17,679 bases of DNA from a virus (Duplodnaviria; Heunggongvirae; Uroviricota; Caudoviricetes): the IMG/VR virus record IMGVR_UViG_3300029234_000244; one strand, written 5' to 3'. Below are positions 708 through 13,628 of this stretch, piece after piece. Under the pieces are notes generated by a model that worked only from the letters and a program-made list of their open reading frames with translations, was not told the origin of the DNA and did not search any database. How positions within the stretch are numbered: the first letter of the stretch is position 1; every line of letters starts with the position of its first letter. The position numbers and the translations under genes are program-made.

Positions 708-1227
708 GTGAAGGCGGAAAAGTAAGAATTGGCGTTACGAGTTATTCGATGTTGAATCTGTTTGTAGAGTGTTGGCTTCAATGCCGCATTGTAGCTGGTT
801 TCTTTCTAATGCGGTTTTTGATTATGTACACCCTTATGTACACGGTTTTTTCGGGTGCTTTGGCCAGAAGCCATTGTCTACATCCCTCACGATCGAGGTG
901 TGTAACCATGTTCAGGCTTGTTGTCCTGCGCGCGCGTATTGCTCGTGAAATTGCTGTAACCAATAGTGATGTCCGAAAAAACCTCCGTTCTCACATGAAA
1001 CAGCCATGTGCAACTGGTAACTGAATAGACTGGTAGACCGTTCGTTCAGTAAATACCTGATATTTTCGCCAACGAGAAATTGCGTTGGCTGGCAGAGTGC
1101 AAATTTGCACTATGACCTAACCCATTGTTTTTTTTCGAAAACCTACAATGCAGGAAGCCGGATAACACCATTTTTATAGCTCCGATCCCTTCAAAGTGAG
1201 GGGTAATTTGCCAAAACAGAGAGAGCA

Positions 1228-1515
1228 TTACTGTCTCTGGCAATCTTTATCGCGATAACGCCTGAAGTACCCTCTCGCTTCCTCATCCATACCAAGAGCC
1301 GAATGAGTCCGCTTAACTGCCTGTCTTAAATCTCCGAATCTGTCTGTAGTTGCTGGTGGGCGTGCCGCCTTACGGATACATTCAGAGCGTCTGTTTGCTG
1401 CATGTTCACGTTCTTTATCGCCATCTGCCAGCATCATGACTTCTGCCCATCGTGCGGCAGCTCTCCGGTATAGCCCTTTTGACTCCAGCTCTTCAGCTTT
1501 CCTGTCCTTTATCAT
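1228..1515 (-). CDS. PerC-family transcriptional regulator (Pch-like)
   Basis: 95-aa ORF with GAGAGG Shine-Dalgarno before the ATG at 1515. N-terminal AEELESKGLYRRAAARWAEVM resembles the conserved LE.KGLWRRAA.RW motif of PerC/Pch proteins, recalled from memory. Confidence 0.5.
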   Translation of the reverse strand: MIKDRKAEELESKGLYRRAAARWAEVMMLADGDKEREHAANRRSECIRKAARPPATTDRFGDLRQAVKRTHSALGMDEEARGYFRRYRDKDCQRQ

Positions 1516-1546
1516 TTCTGCCTCTCAGATTATATAGATAAGCAAA

Positions 1547-1672
1547 AAGGTGTTGGTTCAGTTGGTTCAGTTGGTTCAATTTGTAAAGAGCGTTGTTTTT
1601 ATTGTGTTTTTTCTAAAATATTGAACCAACATCAACTCATTTTGAACCAACACAGCCCAGCTCTGAACCAAC
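1547..1672. repeat. Iteron cluster 1 (crr-like): 3 tandem GTTGGTTCA, AT-rich spacer, then 3 inverted copies TGAACCAAC at 21-bp phasing
   Basis: GTTGGTTCA at 1552-1560, 1561-1569, 1570-1578. TGAACCAAC at 1622-1630, 1643-1651, 1664-1672. The first ~55 bp are a near-perfect reverse complement of 8497-8556. Confidence 0.65.
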
Positions 1673-1723
1673 AACACAGCGATAGATTTGTGATTGGTCC
1701 GTTATTTTCTGGCTGATATTTGA

Positions 1724-1758
1724 GCGTATAACAGTGTTATACAGTGGTATACTGTATG
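1724..1758 (+). promoter_or_regulatory. Operator-like repeats (TATACAGT-type, two direct and one inverted) before the RHH gene
   Basis: gtataACAGTgttatACAGTggtatACTGTatgg immediately upstream of the ATG at 1775. The geometry is ACAG-N7-CTGT, not a LexA box. Confidence 0.3.
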
Positions 1759-1774
1759 GATATTACTCACTGAT

Positions 1775-2230
1775 ATGGTCTTTGCAATGAGCAAATCTAA
1801 TCTGGTCGCGTTCCGCATCCCATCTGAATTGCAGGATGAGTTTAATCGGTCTGTTCTCGCTTCTGGAGGGGATAAAACCTCCTGGCTTGTTGATGCGATT
1901 CGCATGAAGCTGGGACAGCCGGAAAAGTCTATTGATTCACGAATGCTTGGGCTGGTGGAGCGCATGGAAAAAGCCGCTGCGTCGCTTATTGCCGGAAAGC
2001 CGAACATCCCACCAAAGCCATATAACGAAACGGCAGTTATAAAGATCATTGCCGATACCATCCGACAGGGATTTGATAATGGGCGCGTGATAGCTGAACG
2101 GATCAATGAAGCAGGCTATCAAACAAAAGCTGGTAAGGCATGGGATAAAGATATTTACAGCGCGTGGAAGCGTCAGGGAAGCAATGCTGAAAAGTTATCA
2201 GTGGCGCTACATTCAGCGCCATCGCTATAA
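1775..2230 (+). CDS. Putative DNA-binding regulator with N-terminal ribbon-helix-helix-like fold
   Basis: 151-aa ORF. N-terminus NLVAFRIPSELQDEFNRSVLASGGDKTSWLVDAIRMKL has the beta-strand/helix/helix pattern of RHH (CopG/Arc-type) proteins. C-terminal IAERINEAGYQTKAGKAWDKDIYSAWKR resembles recombinase-type DNA-binding motifs. No convincing Shine-Dalgarno; an alternative ATG lies at 1787. Confidence 0.55.
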   Translation: MVFAMSKSNLVAFRIPSELQDEFNRSVLASGGDKTSWLVDAIRMKLGQPEKSIDSRMLGLVERMEKAAASLIAGKPNIPPKPYNETAVIKIIADTIRQGFDNGRVIAERINEAGYQTKAGKAWDKDIYSAWKRQGSNAEKLSVALHSAPSL

Positions 2231-2231
2231 T

Positions 2232-3194
2232 TTATTCAATATCAAATAAATGCCTTGGGAAACCGTTATTATCAGGTAATCCCATGGCTGTCAGGTTACA
2301 TCCTGGTAAGTTAGGCTTGTTATCTACAAGGTTGGCAACTTTTTTTATCCAGTCAGATCCCGGTCCAATTTTTTTCACTAAAAACCATAACACAGCGATC
2401 ATTCCGTACATTCTTTCGTACGCATCATCATTCATATTTAATTGTTCAAAGTACGGCTCATTTGGCAAAGGCATTAATCTTGGTTCGTTGACCTTGTTCC
2501 AGATGCGTGAATGGTGAGCGCACCGATTCCTTAGCACATTCATTGCGCTAAGCCAGTTTTGGAAGATAGCTCCATTGCCTGCCGCTATCCCTAGCCTAGA
2601 TAGTATCCTGTTGCGATAGCTGTCTTTTAGCATCGCATAATACTTTGACATTAAGCCGAAGTCCCACACTTCAATAACCACCCAGAAAGGAAGACCTTCG
2701 TACTTGTTTTCATGCCATTTGATAAAGTCTTCGCGACTTTTAGCAATCTCGGCATTATGTTTATTTATCCATTCTTCTCTGGCGCTTGGGCGACCATGGG
2801 AACGTGGTCTAAAGTGTTTTGGATTTATTAGCGAGTCATCAAGATATGCTAAAGGAGATATCTTACCAAGCTCATGAGCAATAACTGACCGAACATAAAC
2901 CTCAATGCGTTCTAACGCATTCATCATCTGCAAACGCAGATTTTTATCGAATAAATAGAGGTCATATACTGCGCGAAAATTAGTACCTGGACGAACCTGA
3001 TCGAGTCTGGTTCTAATATTGTCTGTTGTTATATGGGGGATTCGGCAGGGGTACCAAAAGCCTGATAATCGGTAGTAGCCTACTTGTGAGATTTTCTTGA
3101 TAGCATGTTCGCGATCTGGCACATCCATACCCCGAGACAGCAATAAATCGACAAGTTCATCATATTCTTTATGAACCTTAACCGGAACAGCCAT
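2232..3194 (-). CDS. Abi_2-family abortive infection protein (AbiD/AbiF-like)
   Basis: 320-aa ORF with hallmark motifs GYYRLSGFWYP and LRNRCAHHSRIWN, and a typical N-terminus (YDELVDLLLSRGMDV). The gene is visibly AT-rich. Its stop is 1 nt from the stop of the convergent RHH gene. Confidence 0.8.
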   Translation of the reverse strand: MAVPVKVHKEYDELVDLLLSRGMDVPDREHAIKKISQVGYYRLSGFWYPCRIPHITTDNIRTRLDQVRPGTNFRAVYDLYLFDKNLRLQMMNALERIEVYVRSVIAHELGKISPLAYLDDSLINPKHFRPRSHGRPSAREEWINKHNAEIAKSREDFIKWHENKYEGLPFWVVIEVWDFGLMSKYYAMLKDSYRNRILSRLGIAAGNGAIFQNWLSAMNVLRNRCAHHSRIWNKVNEPRLMPLPNEPYFEQLNMNDDAYERMYGMIAVLWFLVKKIGPGSDWIKKVANLVDNKPNLPGCNLTAMGLPDNNGFPRHLFDIE

Positions 3195-3782
3195 ACAAAA
3201 GGTTTCCTACCTCCAGATACAAGAAGGCCCGGCCATAACAATTTCTCATCTAAGACAAGATAAAGCCAGGGGGCCGGGCTCAGTTGAGTGTAACTCTATC
3301 CGAAGTTATCCACATGTCAATGCACAGTTACTTAGGAAACTAACATAGGTACTATCATCACTCACGAAAAACCACTATATGTGGTTTTTATTCATATCGT
3401 TATCCACTACAGGCTGTGTCAATAACTTTTACCTATTAATTGGGTAATTTCTACATTTTCCTATGCTGGCTAGTTTCTCTACTGAAAAGTTGGCACTCCT
3501 TAATCGCTTTTCGGTTAATGCTATCGGTCTTCATATTACCAGCAGCATACGCCATCCGATTATTTCGATGCTACGCGCGCGTACTTGTCTCGAAATTGGT
3601 GTTTTGCTGTGGCAGTGATATCAGAAAAATCTTCCTGTTTCACATAAAGCGGATATGTGCGCACTGTAACGGCCCCATCAACGGGGATCGGATTTGAAAT
3701 CCCGACCCAAGCTATGTACCAAATGCCATGTCTTGGATATATGATGATTGCCATTCTAAACAACGCTAAAGGGAGGGTTGGT

Positions 3783-4242: not shown

Positions 4243-6348
4243 TTATTGAGCTTCCTTTTGCGATGCTTGTGCGACTCTGGTGAGCGATTGTGTGACCGTA
4301 CTGATCGCTCTGTCATATGCTGTGCTACCTTTTGGCGTATTTGCCAGACGTAACAAGGCATTTCGTATAACAGGGCTTTCGTATGCCTTCGCTGCTCCGC
4401 CTACGGCACCAGCAGCAGGAACAACAAACGCAGCCGTTTTTAGCATCCCCGCTAATACTGCTGCGTTTATGATGCCACCACCAACTAACAATCCATAAAG
4501 CTGCTGACCATTTAAGTTTTGAACGTTCGCTTTTGCCGCGTGTCTTGTATCGTTGAGGTATTTAATAACGCCGTCCAGTTCCTTTCCATGTATGCCTTTA
4601 AAGAAAGTTGCTGATTGCTTCCTGTTCCGGTGTAACGCATTAATAAACTTCTCAACACTGATATTTCCAGACGGATCAGTCGCCTTATCTACAGCATTCT
4701 GAACTATGGCTGCTCGTGCGTTTTGCCTACCATTGTCATCCAGAAGCCTGTAAAGCTGAGAACGTTCTGATGGGCTTTGGCTAAAAACAAGTTTTGTTAC
4801 ATCCTCAGGCGTGGCCTTGCCGCTGGCTATTGCCTTTTGAACGCGCGTTCTTCCCATCATGTCATTGAATTTAGACCATGAGCGATCAACCCTTGCCATA
4901 TTAATAGCTTCGTCTGCTCCAAGATTTTTGGCTACGGCTTTTTTCATATCCGCCGTATATGCCTTGTAGATAATATCGCTGGCTTTCTGGAGCGTATCTT
5001 TATCAACAGTGTCAGATGACGCCATAAATCGCTTTCGAAGATCGGTTCTGTTTTCCCTCGCCAGACGCAGGTCATTTGGTCCGCTGGTGATATCGTCTTT
5101 AAATTGCTGCAAGACTTTTACCGCGGCTCTATCCTGAGATTTGCCCGGGCGGCTTAACACGGCAATCTGATTGTCGATAGCTTTTACCGTGTTTGAGAGA
5201 TCGACAGGGGTATCCCCCATAGCGTCAATTATGCGGTTATATCGCTTTCCTGCTGCCTCAATGAATTTTTGTTGCCCTTTAGTCGCAGATTCATAAAGCT
5301 GTTTATCAGAAATGCCACCCAGACCATCGCTAAATGTTCTGACTAAATTTTCTCGTGCTTGTTGTTGATTCAGCCGATTCTTACCGGTTCCAAAAAAAGG
5401 AACTCTTTCGCCTAATGTCTGAGCCTGACTCTGCATAAAGGTTTTATCTTTCAGCATGTCACTGGTCATTAACGGCAGATTTCTTTCCGATGCAAAGTCG
5501 ACAGCAGCCTTTGCTTCAGGCGACATATCACCACGAACAGCCCTCGAAACCGCACTCGCTGTATTTTCCAGCCCCTTACCAATACCACCAATGCCAGCAG
5601 AAATTACCGTTTGTAACGGATCAATATCTTCTCCACCAGCGAGGCTGGTGGCTCCCTGTAGTGCTAAATCTGTAGCTGCTGATTTCCCTATGGCCCCCAG
5701 CACCGTTCCGGCCCTGCCCGCTGGTGTAAACGCCAGCGCATTAGCCAGAAACGATGCCACGTCTTGCGGCGATAAACCCGGCTTGTTCAGAGCATAATCA
5801 CCGGATGGCAGGGAAACGATAGTGTTACCCTTCTCATCCTGCCTTAATTTCGCTCCCATGCTCTGAAGAATCTTTTCCTGAGATGCGTCAGAGCCGAAAA
5901 GTTGAGACCATCGAGCTTTTAGAGCATCCATGCTGAGTGAGGTTAACTCTGGGGCAAGGTCGACATTTTGCAGTCTCTCCATCTCTGGAGTCATTCGGCT
6001 TTCGCCTGTTATAGCATCGCGCATCGCAGCCCCAAGACTGGCTCCCTGTTCTGCTGAACGCTCAAGCCCCTCTCTTTGCTGAGTAGCTAACTTTGCATAC
6101 CCTGACGCAATAGAATTATCAGATGATGTATGTTGAATATTTTGAGTTGCTGATTGGGATCGGTCTATTTCATTCGTTGATGGTAGTGGATAGGCAGCAT
6201 AAAAAGCCTGCTTAGCCTGCTCTACACTTTCTCCGGCTTGCGGGGCAACGACTTCATTGAAGTATTGCTCCTGAGCCTGCGCTTTTTGTTCTGGTGCTAA
6301 CGCCTGATACTGTGGAGAGGCGATAACATCTTTCCATGCTTTAGCCAT
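4243..6348 (-). CDS. Hypothetical 701-aa protein, Ala/Gln/Gly-rich, C-proximal hydrophobic Gly/Ala segment
   Basis: Long ORF with GGGGTGA Shine-Dalgarno; its ATG overlaps the upstream stop (TAATG at 6346-6350). Contains LYGLLVGGGIINAAVLAGMLKTAAFVVPAAGAVGGAA about 60 aa from the C-terminus. I see no Walker A or other catalytic motif. Confidence 0.8.
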   Translation of the reverse strand: MAKAWKDVIASPQYQALAPEQKAQAQEQYFNEVVAPQAGESVEQAKQAFYAAYPLPSTNEIDRSQSATQNIQHTSSDNSIASGYAKLATQQREGLERSAEQGASLGAAMRDAITGESRMTPEMERLQNVDLAPELTSLSMDALKARWSQLFGSDASQEKILQSMGAKLRQDEKGNTIVSLPSGDYALNKPGLSPQDVASFLANALAFTPAGRAGTVLGAIGKSAATDLALQGATSLAGGEDIDPLQTVISAGIGGIGKGLENTASAVSRAVRGDMSPEAKAAVDFASERNLPLMTSDMLKDKTFMQSQAQTLGERVPFFGTGKNRLNQQQARENLVRTFSDGLGGISDKQLYESATKGQQKFIEAAGKRYNRIIDAMGDTPVDLSNTVKAIDNQIAVLSRPGKSQDRAAVKVLQQFKDDITSGPNDLRLARENRTDLRKRFMASSDTVDKDTLQKASDIIYKAYTADMKKAVAKNLGADEAINMARVDRSWSKFNDMMGRTRVQKAIASGKATPEDVTKLVFSQSPSERSQLYRLLDDNGRQNARAAIVQNAVDKATDPSGNISVEKFINALHRNRKQSATFFKGIHGKELDGVIKYLNDTRHAAKANVQNLNGQQLYGLLVGGGIINAAVLAGMLKTAAFVVPAAGAVGGAAKAYESPVIRNALLRLANTPKGSTAYDRAISTVTQSLTRVAQASQKEAQ

Positions 6349-7814
6349 TAATCACCCCATAGTGAAGAAAAGTTACTGCTGGCTGCTGGCTGTGATACCT
6401 GCTCAGATTGCGGCAATGTCTGCGACGAAGAAGAAGTTCCTCTGTCAACTGCTGAAATAACCCGCAAAGCATCATAAGTTCGACCAGAAGCAGCTTTCAG
6501 CGAATTGAACTGGTTTTCCATCTTCCGGCGCTTGGTATCAATGGTTTTTGTGGAGTCGCCAGGCTGAGGGAAATACATTTGATAATATTTTGACATTTCA
6601 GCAGGTGCGATAGCTGCCCCTGTTTCCTGACGGAGTATTGCCATTATTGCGTCATTAGCATTAACAACGTATTGCTGCTCTGCTGGGCTGAGCGTTAAGT
6701 TAGCCAGCGTCCCATTACCCAAAGCATTATTAATGATCGCCACTCGCTGTGGGCTAAGCTGGTCTTTCAGTGTATCTATTGAATCAAGAGCATCCCTAAC
6801 CCTGTATGCAAATCCAGCAGCTTTTTTAGCCCCTTCTGGCGACTTTTCCATGATCTTTTGGGCTGTTGGCAAAGCTATTGGACGAAACCCATCTCCAGAT
6901 ATTGGCTGGTTTAGTTTTCCCTGCTCTTCACTTCCGTCTGTGTAGTATTTTGTGACAGTGCCATCATCGTTTTCTCTAACACTCATTAATTTTTTGGTGT
7001 TTGTATTAATTCCAGCCGCTGCCGCAAATGCCGCCGCCCCCTCTGGATCAGCCTTTAACATTTGCGCGTACTGATTGTAATTCTGCATTGCTGCTGTTGG
7101 TGCATATGCTGACGTTAACGCATTTGCTCGGCTAATATCCTGCCCTCTCGCCTGAAGTGCTTCACCAGCCTGATTGCTGCGGATTGTCTCTGCCAACTTG
7201 CCACGCTCAATATCCCGACTTTCCATTTGATCTTTGATATCGAAATACTTCTCATGACCGAGAGAAAACAGCGCCAGATTACCTGCGAAATGCTGGAAGC
7301 CCTGCGGGTCATTAACCTGCATTTCAGCAATAGTTTCTGGAGGGATACCTAAACGACGCATCTCCTGCTCATTATCCATCATGAACCTGCCAAATGCGCC
7401 CGGACCAAGCGATGAGGCTACCTGTGCTTTGAGCGCCAGATTGCCATAATCATCCCTTTGAGCATCATCGACATAACTCATCCCTTTACGGACTTCCTCA
7501 AACTCTTCTGGGAATGCTGTAATAAGATTACGCATCTGCTCCCTGTCACCGGACGCATAAGCATCTGCATAACCTTTCTGGAATGCCGCTTTACGCTCCT
7601 GCTGTTGCTGCTGCTTATAAATATCAGCAACTCCAGCCAGACCACGAAGACCTGTCAGAGCAACGTTATTTGCACCTGATCGAGCCAGTTCATTGTTTTC
7701 GCGGATCAGACCAAGCGTTGCGTTAATGTCGCTTGCCTTTGGCGCATTCTCATTTTGCGTACCGATGCCAGCAAGAAACCCACCAGAATTAATACCCTGT
7801 TGCCACGTAGCCAT
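6348..7814 (-). CDS. Hypothetical 488-aa protein, Gln/Ala-rich, no recognisable domain
   Basis: Long ORF. I prefer ATG at 7814 (MATWQQGINSGG...), 4 nt after the stop of the 57-aa gene. The ORF track uses a GTG at 7826, which would overlap that gene. Stop overlaps the start of the 701-aa gene. Confidence 0.8.
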   Translation of the reverse strand: MATWQQGINSGGFLAGIGTQNENAPKASDINATLGLIRENNELARSGANNVALTGLRGLAGVADIYKQQQQQERKAAFQKGYADAYASGDREQMRNLITAFPEEFEEVRKGMSYVDDAQRDDYGNLALKAQVASSLGPGAFGRFMMDNEQEMRRLGIPPETIAEMQVNDPQGFQHFAGNLALFSLGHEKYFDIKDQMESRDIERGKLAETIRSNQAGEALQARGQDISRANALTSAYAPTAAMQNYNQYAQMLKADPEGAAAFAAAAGINTNTKKLMSVRENDDGTVTKYYTDGSEEQGKLNQPISGDGFRPIALPTAQKIMEKSPEGAKKAAGFAYRVRDALDSIDTLKDQLSPQRVAIINNALGNGTLANLTLSPAEQQYVVNANDAIMAILRQETGAAIAPAEMSKYYQMYFPQPGDSTKTIDTKRRKMENQFNSLKAASGRTYDALRVISAVDRGTSSSSQTLPQSEQVSQPAASSNFSSLWGD

Positions 7815-7818
7815 TGAT

Positions 7819-7992
7819 TTACCCACGTCCAGTTAAAGTGTAAGCCAGCGCCTTATCCATTAATCCCCGAGCAATTTCGTGGATCGTTGGCGCAACTCCT
7901 ACCTCTGATTTTTTACGCTGCTCCTCCTGAATTTTCTTTATCGCTTCCATTTGCTTCTCACTTATCAATACCGGCTTTACTGAAATAGCCAT
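7819..7992 (-). CDS. Small 57-aa protein, helix-rich, possible DNA-binding (HTH/RHH-like); first gene of the LexA-box operon
   Basis: Translated by hand: MAISVKPVLISEKQMEAIKKIQEEQRKKSEVGVAPTIHEIARGLMDKALAYTLTGRG. Shine-Dalgarno AAGGGGG lies 4 nt before the ATG at 7992. Below the 60-aa cut-off of the ORF track. Confidence 0.55.
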   Translation of the reverse strand: MAISVKPVLISEKQMEAIKKIQEEQRKKSEVGVAPTIHEIARGLMDKALAYTLTGRG

Positions 7993-8005
7993 AACGCCCC
8001 CTTAG

Positions 8006-8031
8006 AACTGTATAAAACAACAGTTATTATA
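8006..8031 (-). promoter_or_regulatory. LexA (SOS) box CTGT-N8-ACAG abutting a TATAAT -10 element
   Basis: Plus 8008-8023 CTGTataaaacaACAG, within the palindrome AACTGTATAAAACAACAGTT (8006-8025). On the minus strand TATAAT (8031-8026) lies immediately upstream. The box sits 14 nt before the ATG of the 57-aa gene. The -35 is weak. Confidence 0.6.
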
Positions 8032-8087
8032 GTTTCACAAATCGCAATATTCATCATCGTAATTGCAAAATATGAAACAAACAGCAC

Positions 8088-8440: not shown

Positions 8441-8551
8441 GTTGGTTCAAAATACCGTGTTGTTGGTTCAGTGTTGGTTCAATAAAAAGAATAAAATCCT
8501 TACAAAACAATACTCTTTGCAAATTGAACCAACTGAACCAACTGAACCAAC
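8441..8551. repeat. Iteron cluster 2 (ori-like): 3 GTTGGTTCA at 21/11-bp spacing, AT-rich spacer, then 3 tandem TGAACCAAC
   Basis: GTTGGTTCA at 8441-8449, 8462-8470, 8473-8481. TGAACCAAC at 8525-8533, 8534-8542, 8543-8551. Located 25 bp after the primase stop. Inverted relative to cluster 1. Confidence 0.65.
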
Positions 8552-11345: not shown

Positions 11346-11948
11346 TTAGTGCGTCACTGGTGCTTCTGGGATGCCGTTTTCGTTTAGTTCGGCAATAAAG
11401 CTGTTGTGAAGATCGGCAAGCACTTCTCGCCCAAACGAAGTGAGTGTTCCCTGTTCGACATCGAACATGTTGCTGTAAAAAATGATGGCATTCTTTGTTC
11501 CGACATCAACACCATATTTCTCGATCATTGCGCCCTCAATGTTGTTTGCCATAGCGAGGCGCTCTGCTACTGGATACAGCGGCATGGCGACGATGCCATT
11601 GGAATAAACAGAAACCACGGAATGATTGCCACTGTCATCAATAATGCTGACGGTGCCGTTTTCCTTTCTCATTTCATTGATGAATGCTGTTGCTATCAGC
11701 CAGCGCCACATAATCACGTGATGCTGTGATGTGTAATCGAAATATCCCTGGTTGCCGCCACTGGCAATAGCGAGATGTATAAACATGCCTTCATCTGGTT
11801 TATCGTCATAATCCCCGGCATCCAGACGATTTACGGCATCAATATATGAGACGGTCTCAACGCGTTCTGTCATGCCATCGTTGCTGCGGTACATGATGTT
11901 TACGCCGTCAGGCGTTGCTTCTGCATGGAAAGTTAAGAAATTATTCAT
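11346..11948 (-). CDS. Hypothetical 200-aa protein
   Basis: In-frame ATG at 11948 (MNNFLTFHAEATPDG...) overlaps the upstream stop as ATGAATAA. The ORF track start at 12053 would overlap the upstream gene, so I reject it. Stop is 12 nt before the primase ATG. No recognisable motif. Confidence 0.65.
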   Translation of the reverse strand: MNNFLTFHAEATPDGVNIMYRSNDGMTERVETVSYIDAVNRLDAGDYDDKPDEGMFIHLAIASGGNQGYFDYTSQHHVIMWRWLIATAFINEMRKENGTVSIIDDSGNHSVVSVYSNGIVAMPLYPVAERLAMANNIEGAMIEKYGVDVGTKNAIIFYSNMFDVEQGTLTSFGREVLADLHNSFIAELNENGIPEAPVTH

Positions 11949-12162
11949 GTTTCGCCTCGCCTGAATGATTCTGTAACTCATATTTGCCCAACAATTCGTC
12001 CGCTTCCTGAATAGCTTCTGGTACGCCATTGAGCAGTGACATAACCGCGCCAATCATTAACTTGTCTCTGTTGCTGGGGCTGGCCCCTTCAAGCCAGAAC
12101 CCTAAAACAGTCTGAACCTGTTCGATGCGACATTGCGCTTCAATGAGCTGGATGTTGGTCAT
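11941..12162 (-). CDS. Hypothetical 73-aa protein
   Basis: ORF whose ATG overlaps the upstream stop (ATGA at 12159-12162); part of the coupled chain. Confidence 0.55.
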   Translation of the reverse strand: MTNIQLIEAQCRIEQVQTVLGFWLEGASPSNRDKLMIGAVMSLLNGVPEAIQEADELLGKYELQNHSGEAKHE

Positions 12163-12422
12163 TTCGCACTCTCCACATCGATTAAACCGATATCTATCAG
12201 GGAGGTAACTTTTTGTAGCCAGCTATTGATTACTGTCGCCTGTTCCCCTCCCACCGAGGGAACAATCTCATTCATCACATGAACCAGACCTGTGCGCGCT
12301 CTGGTAAGCCGTTCAGTCGCGCAATCTGCGGGAGTGAATGTGTCTGGATATGGCTCTTCGCGCCCCAGCAATGATTCAATTTCCAGCTCACACGGATGAC
12401 GATAAATTAAGTTGATATTCAT
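12159..12422 (-). CDS. Hypothetical 87-aa protein
   Basis: ATGA overlap with the upstream gene at 12419-12422; GGGGGTGA Shine-Dalgarno. Confidence 0.55.
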   Translation of the reverse strand: MNINLIYRHPCELEIESLLGREEPYPDTFTPADCATERLTRARTGLVHVMNEIVPSVGGEQATVINSWLQKVTSLIDIGLIDVESAK

Positions 12423-12818: not shown

Positions 12819-13628
12819 GTGCCACCTCCATGCGGATACGACCAGCAAAAAAGCAGACGTGATCGCGCACCAGAGAACGGCGAGCATCGCGTTCAGACTC
12901 GGCAGCAATATGATGAATTTTGGCGGTAATTGTCGGGCAATCGCGGCGAACTGCGGCGATAATCCAGATAAATTGAGGTTTTTGGGTAGGGGTAGTAGCC
13001 AGCATGTGGCAGCCTCCTTGATTGATGGTTTATAGCCACCGCCCAAGAGACCAATCTTGCTGGCGGTGGACTGTACGGAGTTGGCCTTACTGGCAATCAA
13101 GGAAACCAGCCTACCCGAAGGTAGCCCCATACAGCCCACCATTGATAAGGTGTGCGTGTGCGCCGATACAAAAAAAGACGCTGGCGCGTCATGTATCGCC
13201 TCGATTGTCAGCGGGAGGCCAATCCCGGCACCCGTTTTATGAGGTGCTTTATAACCATAAACCGTGTTGCCGCATAACGGCAAGCTCTTTTTTATGGACT
13301 CCGAAAACTCAGTATTGGAAGCACCAGATGCACAGTACATCGCGCTCATTTCGTTAACGTCACGCACGTGGACGAATGTTTTTGTGGAGTCACTACACGA
13401 GCGGAAGACATCATCTACGACCAGAAATTTTCTGGCGCAGCCGCTGACCTTCTCAATGCTAATATCATCGCCCGAGATTTCTGGTATGGTTAAGGCATCC
13501 GTTCCGACCACCAGCAAATGATAAACTTTGCTTGCATCTGCTGTATTAATGCCTGACTTTGCCGTCATATTGCTGGATTTTGGCGACATACCTGCCAGTG
13601 AAAATGTCTTCTTCTGGACGGTTAGCAT
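12600..13628 (-). CDS. Hypothetical protein; 342-codon ORF that is probably composite (only the first ~205 codons, about 13012-13628, are well supported)
   Basis: ATG at 13628 has GGAGG Shine-Dalgarno and is coupled to the DUF4222 stop (ATGCTAA). The frame stays open to 12600, but codons about 208-270 run out of frame across the Icd-like gene and translate to low-complexity sequence. Codons 271-342 equal the separately supported 72-aa gene. Confidence 0.4.
12811..13005 (-). CDS. Host cell division inhibitor Icd-like protein (64 aa)
   Basis: ATG at 13005 preceded by a strong Shine-Dalgarno AGGAGG at 7-nt spacing. Protein [21 protein letters not shown]...[16 protein letters not shown] resembles Icd-like proteins of P4-like islands, from memory. 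Confidence 0.5.
   Translation of the reverse strand: MLATTPTQKPQFIWIIAAVRRDCPTITAKIHHIAAESERDARRSLVRDHVCFFAGRIRMEVAHD

What the first reader, a model, noticed from the sequence alone, without database searches (positions are those of the whole stretch)
1775..3194. Abi_2 abortive-infection gene in strict tail-to-tail arrangement with an RHH-type regulator
The Abi_2 gene (hallmark YYRLSGFW and RNRCAHHSRIWN motifs) and the plus-strand RHH gene end 1 nt apart (stops at 2228-2230 and 2234-2232). There is no room for terminators, so the 3' ends of the transcripts must overlap, which allows antisense or transcriptional-interference control of a potentially toxic Abi gene. The RHH gene carries operator-like repeats at its own promoter. 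Both genes are visibly AT-rich compared with the island core.
Basis: partly seen in the sequence, partly recalled or inferred. Interest (0 to 1): 0.5.

Follow-up and report, generated by a model that had tools for sequence, protein, structure and literature searches.

The report
Abi defence cargo beside satellite regulator gene
The two genes do end one base apart, but the Abi gene is a self-contained, swappable anti-phage module sitting in a cargo hotspot of a phage satellite, and the RHH gene is the hotspot's conserved, self-regulating border gene rather than a dedicated Abi partner.

Summary
A 151-aa (+) ORF (1775-2230; more likely 147 aa from 1787) and a 320-aa Abi_2/AbiD-F gene (2232-3194, -) have stop codons 1 nt apart.

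The window is an E. coli EcCIMP1-like phage-inducible chromosomal island at thrW.

**RHH-like gene.** It is conserved across Enterobacterales at the island's far end. It carries a 17-bp palindrome at its own promoter. The palindrome type tracks the predicted RHH beta-strand in 44 of 45 loci, so the protein is probably an autoregulator.

**Variable cargo.** What follows this gene differs between islands: this Abi allele, a 51%-identical Abi allele, Shosta (also with a 1-nt tail-to-tail gap), an ImmA/IrrE pair, or nothing. Breakpoints fall in the last 20-45 nt of the RHH ORF.

**Abi without the RHH gene.** Abi homologues (70-81% identical) also occur in lambdoid prophages and next to an IS.

**Abi leader.** Every close Abi homologue carries the same promoter and a covarying leader hairpin (window 3279-3227). 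This fits the known AbiD/F protein-plus-upstream-RNA (type III toxin-antitoxin) design.

**Verdict.** Overlap of the 3' transcript ends is likely. It is a general feature of the hotspot junction, and nothing shows it regulates Abi specifically. This is an ordinary new member of known kinds.

The parts
1552..1672 (.). Iteron cluster A: 3 tandem GTTGGTTCA (1552-1578) and 3 inverted copies (1622, 1643, 1664; 21-bp spacing) between PerC and the RHH gene
   Evidence: 12 exact copies in the window, all in two clusters (the other at 8441-8551, just past the primase stop). With up to 1 mismatch there are 17 matches against 4.4 expected, 0/200 shuffles. The cluster is kept in EcCIMP1, which lacks the RHH gene, and is present upstream of only about half of RHH loci.
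1726..1757 (.). Predicted RHH operator over the RHH promoter: perfect 17-bp palindrome GTATAACAGTGTTATAC (1726-1742) and overlapping inverted repeat (1739-1757)
   Evidence: the only copy in the window. It sits at the same distance from the start codon in 45 loci. Operator type tracks the N-terminal strand: SNL(V/I)AFR with the GTATAAC palindrome in 24/25, SLSVTFR with GTCTTAC direct repeats in 20/20.
1775..2230 (+). RHH-like plus HTH DNA-binding protein gene (151-aa ORF; probable start 1787, 147 aa). It is the conserved border gene of the cargo hotspot and reads inward against the rest of the island
2202..2221 (.). 8-bp palindromic GC hairpin (UGGCGCU-N6-AGCGCCA) inside the last codons of the RHH ORF, 10 nt past the Abi stop; possible weak 3' hairpin for both transcripts
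   Evidence: + strand -19.3 kcal/mol, z -2.5. The homology break with the ImmA/IrrE-cargo island falls at 2209, in its loop. It is not conserved at other RHH-Abi junctions.
2232..3194 (-). AbiD/F-group (Abi_2, HEPN) abortive-infection gene, 320 aa; hotspot cargo
   Evidence: PF07751 E=3.6e-52; PDB 8VZ6 (PbAbiF-ncRNA complex) E=7.5e-34 over residues 10-307; 28-30% identical to C. difficile phage AbiF; R222-x4-H227 HEPN motif invariant.
3195..3292 (-). Conserved structured leader RNA of abi. Long hairpin with closing helix P1 GCCCGGCC (3279-3272) / GGCCGGGC (3234-3227), followed by conserved CCUUCUUnUAUCU and the RBS. Candidate AbiFr-like antitoxin/attenuator RNA
   Evidence: the covariance model hits directly upstream of 33 of 34 Abi loci (42-100% protein identity). 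P1 is 98.7% paired in 29 distinct sequences, 5 of 8 pairs have compensatory changes, and 0/500 shuffles reach the score. No Rfam family matches, including abiF RF03085.
3293..3320 (-). abi promoter: -35 TTGACA (3320-3315), 16-nt spacer, -10 TAGAGT (3298-3293)
   Evidence: 10/12 match. TTGACA is invariant in 9 aligned loci from satellites, prophages and an IS context.
3367..3389 (.). Palindromic terminator-like hairpin AAAAACCAC-N5-GTGGTTTTT upstream of the abi promoter, insulating the cargo module on both strands
   Evidence: I18, 9-bp arms, 100% complementary. It lies inside the cargo segment that is absent from islands without Abi.
8441..8551 (.). Iteron cluster B (3+3 copies of GTTGGTTCA) immediately downstream of the TOPRIM/DUF927 primase gene; probable origin
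   Evidence: The same second cluster is found next to the primase in EcCIMP1 and L001.

Best explanation
The window is an EcCIMP1-like phage-inducible chromosomal island (a satellite of P22-like phages) in E. coli. At the end far from the integrase sits a conserved gene for a small two-domain DNA-binding protein, with an N-terminal RHH-like domain and a C-terminal HTH-like domain. It is transcribed inward and most likely represses its own promoter through a 17-bp palindrome. Directly after its stop codon lies a cargo hotspot where anti-phage modules are exchanged by recombination, with one breakpoint inside the last 20-45 nt of the RHH ORF. In this island the cargo is a self-contained AbiD/F (Abi_2, HEPN RNase) module. 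It has its own sigma-70 promoter, a conserved about 95-nt structured leader RNA, the abi ORF, and an upstream palindromic terminator. By homology with PbAbiF and C. difficile AbiF, I infer the following. The leader RNA, possibly released by termination at the U-rich tract after helix P1, binds and neutralises the Abi RNase. It also limits read-through into abi. Phage infection then releases the nuclease. The 1-nt tail-to-tail spacing is a by-product of how cargo is joined to the RHH gene's 3' end. Shown: the gene identities, the hotspot, the discordant histories of the two genes, the operator/strand association, and the covarying leader. Inferred: RNA antitoxin function, autorepression, and the recombination mechanism.
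For: Island identity: integrase, AlpA, TOPRIM/DUF927 primase, P22-type ejection proteins and PerC between thrW/proA and yagU, as in EcCIMP1. Hotspot: in complete E. coli genomes the RHH gene is in 361, this Abi allele in 55 and a 51%-identical allele in 73-74. Homology to the window stops at 2185-2209 and resumes at 3267, 3504 or 3574 depending on cargo. Alternative cargos are an ImmA/IrrE (CapP/RmrA-like) pair, nothing, Shosta (ShosT E=1.6e-48, ShosA E=2.7e-101, with a 1-nt tail-to-tail gap) and PDC-M18A. Only 2 of 48 species-representative RHH loci carry Abi. Discordance: Abi 85% against RHH 68% identity to Serratia, and Abi 51% against RHH 93% to another E. coli island. Abi without RHH: Dickeya next to an IS, Enterobacter and Citrobacter in the nin region of lambdoid prophages, and 14 IMG/VR loci. 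Leader. Family mechanism: PDB 8VZ6 homology and the literature on AbiD/F as protein plus upstream ncRNA, a type III TA (PMC12373285, PMC13064643, PMC12737573). RHH autoregulation.
Against: No expression data are available, so overlap of the transcripts and any effect on Abi levels are untested. The association is not weak from the Abi side: 15 of 34 IMG/VR Abi loci and 128 of 361 E. coli RHH carriers have the pair, always convergent and at most 51 nt apart. A secondary functional interaction therefore cannot be excluded. The leader does not match Rfam's abiF motif and contains a single hairpin rather than a repeat array, so its antitoxin role rests on family analogy. The RHH fold assignment is weak: no Pfam hit, hhalign probability 6-8%, N-terminal pLDDT 55-68. 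The operator/strand association involves two clades and so may reflect few independent events.
Confidence: 0.72

Rival explanations
1. One reading: RHH and Abi are a dedicated pair. Convergent transcription with overlapping 3' ends gives antisense or transcriptional-interference control of a toxic Abi gene, tuned by the autoregulated RHH promoter.
For: The stops are 1 nt apart and there is no terminator between them. The convergent, tight arrangement (-4 to 51 nt) recurs in at least 7 junction types across E. coli, Serratia, Erwinia, Raoultella and Rahnella. The pair occurs in 35% of E. coli RHH carriers.
Against: Each gene is common without the other. The gene histories are discordant. The same geometry occurs with Shosta and other cargo. 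Prophage-borne Abi copies have their own terminators and no RHH gene. Abi has its own conserved regulatory RNA.
Confidence: 0.1
2. Generic gatekeeper model: inward transcription from the RHH promoter dampens whatever cargo is installed (Abi, Shosta, others) by antisense or collision. The effect would be real but not specific to Abi.
For: The RHH gene is the only gene at this end that reads against the island. In many loci the first cargo gene is convergent and within about 50 nt, or overlapping. The promoter carries a conserved operator, so its output is regulated.
Against: Many loci have a co-directional first gene or gaps of hundreds of nt after the RHH gene. EcCIMP1, a functional island, lacks the RHH gene altogether. 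There are no expression data.
Confidence: 0.1
3. The RHH protein is a protein antitoxin or direct transcriptional repressor of abi, in the style of a type II toxin-antitoxin system.
For: RHH domains are common in type II antitoxins (established knowledge). The two genes are adjacent.
Against: The genes are convergent and not co-transcribed. The operator palindrome has no second copy in the window, even allowing 3 mismatches. The abi promoter spacer is not conserved among RHH-linked loci. RHH occurs without Abi and Abi without RHH.
Confidence: 0.03

Closest known systems
AbiD/AbiD1/AbiF group (Pfam Abi_2; PbAbiF-AbiFr, PDB 8VZ6; C. difficile AbiF-RCd22): HEPN RNase toxin plus cis-encoded upstream ncRNA, type III toxin-antitoxin / abortive infection
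   Same: Full-length homology to PbAbiF (E=7.5e-34) and to C. difficile phage AbiF (28-30% identity). The R-x4-H HEPN motif is invariant. A conserved, covarying structured RNA lies directly upstream, is transcribed from its own promoter and is followed by a U-rich tract. The upstream region is at least as conserved as the protein, as reported for the lactococcal members.
   Different: The leader does not match Rfam abiF (RF03085) at any threshold tried. It is one long hairpin, not two repeated motifs as in RCd22. Toxicity, RNA binding and anti-phage activity are untested here.
Defence hotspots of phage satellites (P4-like hotspot, Rousset et al. 2022, PMC9122126; rapid swapping, PMC13586616) and accessory regions of E. 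coli PICIs
   Same: Conserved flanking core genes, with mutually exclusive cargo that includes known defence systems (AbiD, Shosta, PDC-M18A). Near-identical core genes carry different cargo. The same cargo is shared with prophages.
   Different: The island is an EcCIMP1-like PICI, not P4. The hotspot is at the end opposite the integrase, and its left border is the 3' end of an RHH-HTH gene. I did not find this hotspot described in the papers read.
EcCIMP1 (E. coli MP1 PICI mobilised by the P22-like phage Kapi1; PMC11773190)
   Same: Same integration site (thrW/proA to yagU), the same integrase, AlpA, antirepressor, primase, ejection-protein and PerC modules, and the same two iteron clusters.
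   Different: EcCIMP1 lacks the RHH gene and has no recognised defence system. It carries alpA_1 in the corresponding region.
Arc/Mnt-type ribbon-helix-helix autorepressors (P22 immI) and RHH antitoxins
   Same: An N-terminal strand-helix-helix pattern (VAFRIP...), a palindromic or tandem operator over the gene's own promoter, and an operator type that changes with the strand residues.
   Different: No Pfam RHH model matches. The protein has an extra, strongly conserved C-terminal HTH-like domain (recombinase/TerS-like, weak matches). Its target beyond its own promoter is unknown.

Membership tests
Abi_2 / AbiD-F group | Match to PF07751 above the gathering score over the whole domain | tested here: met
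   177.8 bits against 25.6, profile positions 3-184 of 184. PADLOC AbiD E=2.7e-57.
Abi_2 / AbiD-F group | HEPN R-x4-6-H catalytic motif | tested here: met
   R222-N-R-C-A-H227-H228. R222, N223, A226, H227 and H228 are invariant in 31 homologues.
Abi_2 / AbiD-F group | Homology to a structurally solved AbiF | tested here: met
   8vz6_A, E=7.5e-34, residues 10-307 against 13-290.
AbiF-type type III toxin-antitoxin | Conserved structured ncRNA encoded directly upstream of the toxin gene | tested here: met
   the motif is found upstream of 33/34 homologue loci. Helix P1 is 98.7% paired, 5/8 pairs show compensatory changes, and 0/500 shuffles reach the score.
AbiF-type type III toxin-antitoxin | Match to the Rfam abiF motif (RF03085) | tested here: not met
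   no hit at the gathering threshold or at E<=10, even on a 251-nt stretch.
AbiF-type type III toxin-antitoxin | Tandem repeats in the antitoxin RNA | tested here: not met
   One search finds no direct repeat in 3195-3320. The fold is a single long hairpin.
AbiF-type type III toxin-antitoxin | The RNA binds and neutralises the toxin; the toxin is an RNase; phage resistance | not testable with these tools
   Needs toxicity rescue, co-purification and plaque assays.
Ribbon-helix-helix (Arc/MetJ) DNA-binding proteins | Sequence match to an RHH family model | tested here: not met
   no Pfam RHH family at E<=10. One weak match to PHROG phrog_30270, of unknown function.
Ribbon-helix-helix (Arc/MetJ) DNA-binding proteins | Strand-helix-helix topology and alignment to Arc/Mnt in register | tested here: inconclusive
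   helices 13-25 and 30-43 after an extended N-terminus, pLDDT 55-68. hhalign E=0.0066 (Arc) and 0.004 (Mnt), probability 6-8%.
Ribbon-helix-helix (Arc/MetJ) DNA-binding proteins | Repeated operator whose sequence depends on the strand residues | tested here: met
   44 of 45 loci follow the rule AFR strand = GTATAAC palindrome, TFR strand = GTCTTAC direct repeats.
Satellite/prophage defence hotspot | Conserved flanks with mutually exclusive cargo that includes known defence systems | tested here: met
EcCIMP1-like PICI | Integrase, AlpA, primase and PerC, no capsid or lysis genes, same attachment region | tested here: met
   Mobilisation by a helper phage is not testable here.
Convergent-transcription (antisense) regulated gene pair | Overlapping transcripts that change expression of the partner | not testable with these tools
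   Only geometry is available (1-nt gap, no canonical terminator).
Rpp (PICI redirecting-phage-packaging protein) | Sequence or fold similarity to solved Rpp structures | tested here: not met

The most novel reading that the evidence does not exclude
The inward-facing, autoregulated RHH-HTH gene is a built-in gatekeeper of a satellite defence hotspot. Its 3' end would be the recombination anchor at which cargo is exchanged. Its transcript would read antisense into whichever toxic defence module is installed (AbiD/F, Shosta, others). Satellites would thereby gain a universal, cargo-independent brake that lets them acquire toxic systems safely.
Probability: 0.1. Interest if true: 0.6.

Novelty: new member of a known kind. 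Interest (0 to 1): 0.3.

Why it matters
The finding is mostly explained by known biology: an AbiD/F-type RNA-plus-protein defence module carried as cargo in a phage satellite.

Three by-products could be useful:
- A defence hotspot in the EcCIMP1-like PICI family, which I did not find described in the papers read. Its border is sharply defined at the 3' end of one gene.
- An enterobacterial/proteobacterial AbiD/F leader RNA with good covariation support that Rfam's abiF model does not detect. It could be used to annotate these systems and to test the antitoxin model in E. coli.
- A clean example of a switch in RHH strand and operator specificity.

If the convergent RHH transcript did modulate cargo expression, it would be a general way for mobile elements to tolerate toxic defence genes. 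Nothing found here requires that.

Tried and rejected
2. **Rfam abiF motif upstream of abi.** Not found at the gathering threshold or at E<=10 on 2.4-kb and 251-nt stretches.
3. **GTTGGTTCA repeats as the RHH operator.** Rejected. A second identical cluster sits next to the primase gene. Both clusters persist in EcCIMP1, which lacks the RHH gene. Only about half of RHH loci have them upstream. From memory, they resemble the P4 ori/crr iterons bound by the primase.
4. **An RHH operator near the abi promoter.** No match to GTATAACNNNGTTATAC with up to 3 mismatches. Two copies of GTTATCCAC (3305-3313, 3399-3407) resemble a half-site, but they are not conserved in other RHH-linked Abi loci and are within chance.
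5. **The hairpin at 2202-2221 as a conserved bidirectional terminator.** It is stable, lacks a proper U-tract and is absent from other junctions.
6. **Pfam and NCBIfam naming of the RHH protein.** Nothing significant.
7. **Literature on satellites carrying ejection proteins.** The search found nothing.
Full report
**1. Observation**

The ORF list and the sequence confirm a + strand ORF at 1775-2230 (151 aa) and a - strand ORF at 2232-3194 (320 aa). TAA at 2228-2230 and TAA read from 2234-2232 leave one base, 2231, between them.

The - strand protein is a clear Abi_2 member:
- Pfam PF07751, E=3.6e-52, full profile.
- PADLOC AbiD, E=2.7e-57.
- PHROG 'abortive infection resistance protein'.

Both quoted motifs are present. 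They fall on invariant columns of a 31-sequence alignment, including the HEPN R222-x4-H227.

Homologues of the + strand protein, and PGAP in RefSeq genomes, start at the second ATG (1787, MSKSNL...).

GC content is 41.4% for abi, 48.2% for the + gene and 46.4% for the window. Only abi is AT-rich.

**2. Where this is**

The 1200-3700 stretch is 99% identical to 55 complete E. coli chromosomes. In NZ_AP021933 the island lies between tRNA-Thr/proA and yagU. It carries an integrase, AlpA, an antirepressor, a TOPRIM/DUF927 primase, P22-type ejection proteins and PerC (PHROGs).

This is the layout of EcCIMP1, an E. coli phage-inducible chromosomal island mobilised by the P22-like phage Kapi1 (PMC11773190; MP1 locus).

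**3. The + strand gene is a conserved border gene, not an Abi accessory**

Its family is found across Enterobacterales at 65-81% identity. Genera include Salmonella, Klebsiella, Enterobacter, Serratia, Pantoea, Erwinia, Providencia and Photorhabdus. It always sits at the edge of an island.

In complete E. coli genomes:
- The gene occurs in 361 genomes.
- This Abi allele occurs in 55, all of them with the RHH gene.
- A second Abi allele, 51% identical, occurs in 73-74.
- So about 65% of carriers have neither allele.

Similarity to the window stops inside the last 20-45 nt of the ORF, at 2185, 2197 or 2209. It resumes at 3267, 3504 or 3574 depending on the island.

What lies between is one of:
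- this Abi module;
- the other Abi allele;
- a hypothetical protein plus an ImmA/IrrE peptidase (CapP/RmrA-like in PADLOC);
- essentially nothing.

In Klebsiella the same position holds Shosta (ShosT E=1.6e-48, ShosA E=2.7e-101). The ShosT stop is 1 nt from the RHH stop. A Rosenbergiella island holds PDC-M18A.

Of 48 species-representative loci, only two (Raoultella, Rahnella) have an Abi_2 gene there.

The protein's last ~12 residues differ with the cargo, while the rest is highly conserved.

This is the signature of a satellite defence hotspot of the kind described for P4 (PMC9122126, PMC13586616). The RHH gene's 3' end is one recombination border.

**4. The two genes have separate histories**

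| Comparison | Abi identity | RHH identity |
|---|---|---|
| Window vs Serratia marcescens island | 85% | 68% |
| Window vs another E. coli island | 51% | 93% |

Abi homologues at 70-81% identity occur in other settings:
- next to an IS3 element in Dickeya;
- in the nin region of lambdoid prophages of Enterobacter and Citrobacter, with their own rho-independent terminators and no RHH gene;
- relatives at about 47-50% identity in Pseudomonas, Thauera and Desulfobulbus. The RHH-family hits listed are almost all from Enterobacterales (one contig is labelled otherwise).

The association is nevertheless not negligible from the Abi side. Fifteen of 34 IMG/VR Abi loci, and an Erwinia persicina island, have the RHH gene convergent downstream. 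Fourteen loci have at least 2.3 kb downstream without it.

In all pairs the gap is short but variable: -4, 1, 4, 12, 26-32, 29 or 51 nt. Tight convergent junctions are also seen with non-Abi cargo.

**5. What the + strand protein is**

There is no Pfam, NCBIfam or PDB sequence match.

The AlphaFold model has three parts:
- an N-terminal extended segment followed by two helices (13-25, 30-43), at modest confidence;
- a long helix;
- a very confident C-terminal helical domain (residues 78-142, pLDDT >90).

Supporting comparisons are weak:
- hhalign places the N-terminus on Arc and Mnt in the RHH register (E=0.0066 and 0.004, low probability).
- The C-domain gives subthreshold Pfam hits to Recombinase and HTH_62.

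The best functional evidence is comparative. A perfect 17-bp palindrome, GTATAACAGTGTTATAC, lies at 1726-1742 over the promoter and is unique in the window. It is conserved at the same distance from the start codon. Across 45 loci:
- proteins with the strand SNL(V/I)AFR have the GTATAAC/GTTATAC palindrome (24 of 25);
- proteins with SLSVTFR have two direct GTCTTAC repeats (20 of 20);
- both types occur within Buttiauxella.

I therefore accept 'RHH-type regulator with operator-like repeats at its own promoter' as probably right. I read the protein as an autoregulator.

**6. The other repeats**

The conspicuous GTTGGTTCA repeats at 1552-1672 are a different feature. An identical 3+3 cluster lies at 8441-8551, just after the primase stop codon.

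Both clusters are kept in EcCIMP1, which has no RHH gene (tblastn negative). Only about half of RHH loci have them upstream.

They look like origin iterons, analogous to P4 ori/crr. That analogy is from memory and is not tested here.

**7. What regulates Abi**

All close Abi homologues share an upstream module, whether they sit in satellites, prophages or beside an IS. It consists of an invariant TTGACA -35 (window 3320-3315), a -10 (3298-3293) and a leader. The leader contains GAGCCCGGCC...GGCCGGGCCUUCUUnUAUCU just before the RBS.

- The window leader folds into one long hairpin (-30.5 kcal/mol, z=-2.2).
- A covariance model built from 9 leaders finds the motif directly upstream of 33 of 34 Abi loci, down to 42-50% protein identity.
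- In 29 distinct sequences the closing helix is 98.7% paired. Compensatory changes occur at 5 of 8 pairs.
- No shuffle in 500 reaches the observed covariation, and slid controls are far lower. One caveat is that the alignment was fitted to the model.
- Between the two E. coli Abi alleles the promoter is shared at 96% identity. The hairpin and ORF were swapped together.

The protein is homologous over its full length to PbAbiF in the AbiF-ncRNA complex 8VZ6 (E=7.5e-34) and to C. difficile phage AbiF.

For this group the literature reports an upstream ncRNA that blocks the HEPN site, and a terminator that sets the RNA-to-toxin ratio (PMC12373285, PMC12737573, PMC13064643).

Rfam's abiF motif does not match this leader. 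The leader has no internal repeat. I therefore call it a probable AbiFr-like RNA of a variant type. Its antitoxin and attenuator roles are inferred.

**8. Transcript overlap**

The geometric argument holds. Any 3' UTR on either mRNA overlaps the other gene, and there is no canonical terminator.

A stable 8-bp palindromic hairpin at 2202-2221 could cap both transcripts. It lacks a U-tract and is not conserved.

Overlap is also expected for Shosta and other cargo at this junction. The comparative data give no sign that the RHH gene is needed for Abi. A generic dampening effect of inward RHH transcription on cargo remains possible and untested.

**9. Verdict**

The locus is a self-contained AbiD/F-type module inserted as cargo in the defence hotspot of an EcCIMP1-like satellite. 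It abuts the conserved, autoregulated RHH-HTH border gene.

It is a new member of known kinds, and interest is modest. The side results worth keeping are the hotspot itself, the covarying leader RNA that Rfam misses, and the link between RHH strand and operator type.

Noticed in passing
window 1552-1672 and 8441-8551: Two clusters of the 9-mer GTTGGTTCA, each with 3 direct plus 3 inverted copies, about 6.9 kb apart. One follows the primase stop and the other lies next to PerC. They look like a P4 ori/crr-style split origin.
   Followed up: partly
window 13059-13146 (-) and 13171-13247 (-): Rfam C4 antisense RNA (79.2 bits) and isrK (65 bits), both above gathering score, inside the long ORF that PGAP calls 'ash family protein'. 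This points to a P4/P1-type RNA immunity region in this PICI.
   Followed up: no
window 3574-3596; L001 18397-18661: Relative to most related islands the window lacks about 264-286 bp between the Abi module and the phrog_2651 gene. The missing piece is flanked by a 23-bp direct repeat, so it looks like a repeat-mediated deletion.
   Followed up: partly
L024 (E. coli MP1, EcCIMP1) 11700-12400: The experimentally studied EcCIMP1 lacks the RHH-HTH gene but keeps the iterons. Its reported transduction frequency is very low (PMC11773190). Whether the RHH-HTH protein aids packaging or replication is open.
   Followed up: no
L012-L017 (Klebsiella) 6001-8055: A Shosta system (ShosT/ShosA) occupies the same hotspot, with the ShosT stop 1 nt from the RHH stop. 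This is the same geometry as in the window.
   Followed up: yes
window 4243-7826 (-): The satellite carries homologues of P22-type ejection/DNA-transfer proteins (PHROGs 770, 917). In related islands the 701-aa gene is replaced by a lytic-transglycosylase version. This is unusual cargo for a PICI and consistent with a P22-like helper.
   Followed up: no
window 3305-3313 and 3399-3407: Two exact copies of GTTATCCAC, one in the abi promoter spacer. They resemble the RHH operator half-site (GTTATAC) but are not conserved in Serratia, Rahnella or Erwinia loci, so this is probably chance.
   Followed up: partly
window 2926-2941 (+): A terminator-like hairpin followed by TTTTAT lies on the strand antisense to abi, about 700 nt past the RHH stop. 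It could end RHH read-through, but the scan found no more such sites than expected by chance.
   Followed up: no
window ~700-860: The region left of PerC corresponds to an annotated integrase pseudogene fragment in related genomes (L001 15502-15656). It is probably a remnant of another element at the yagU side of the island.
   Followed up: no
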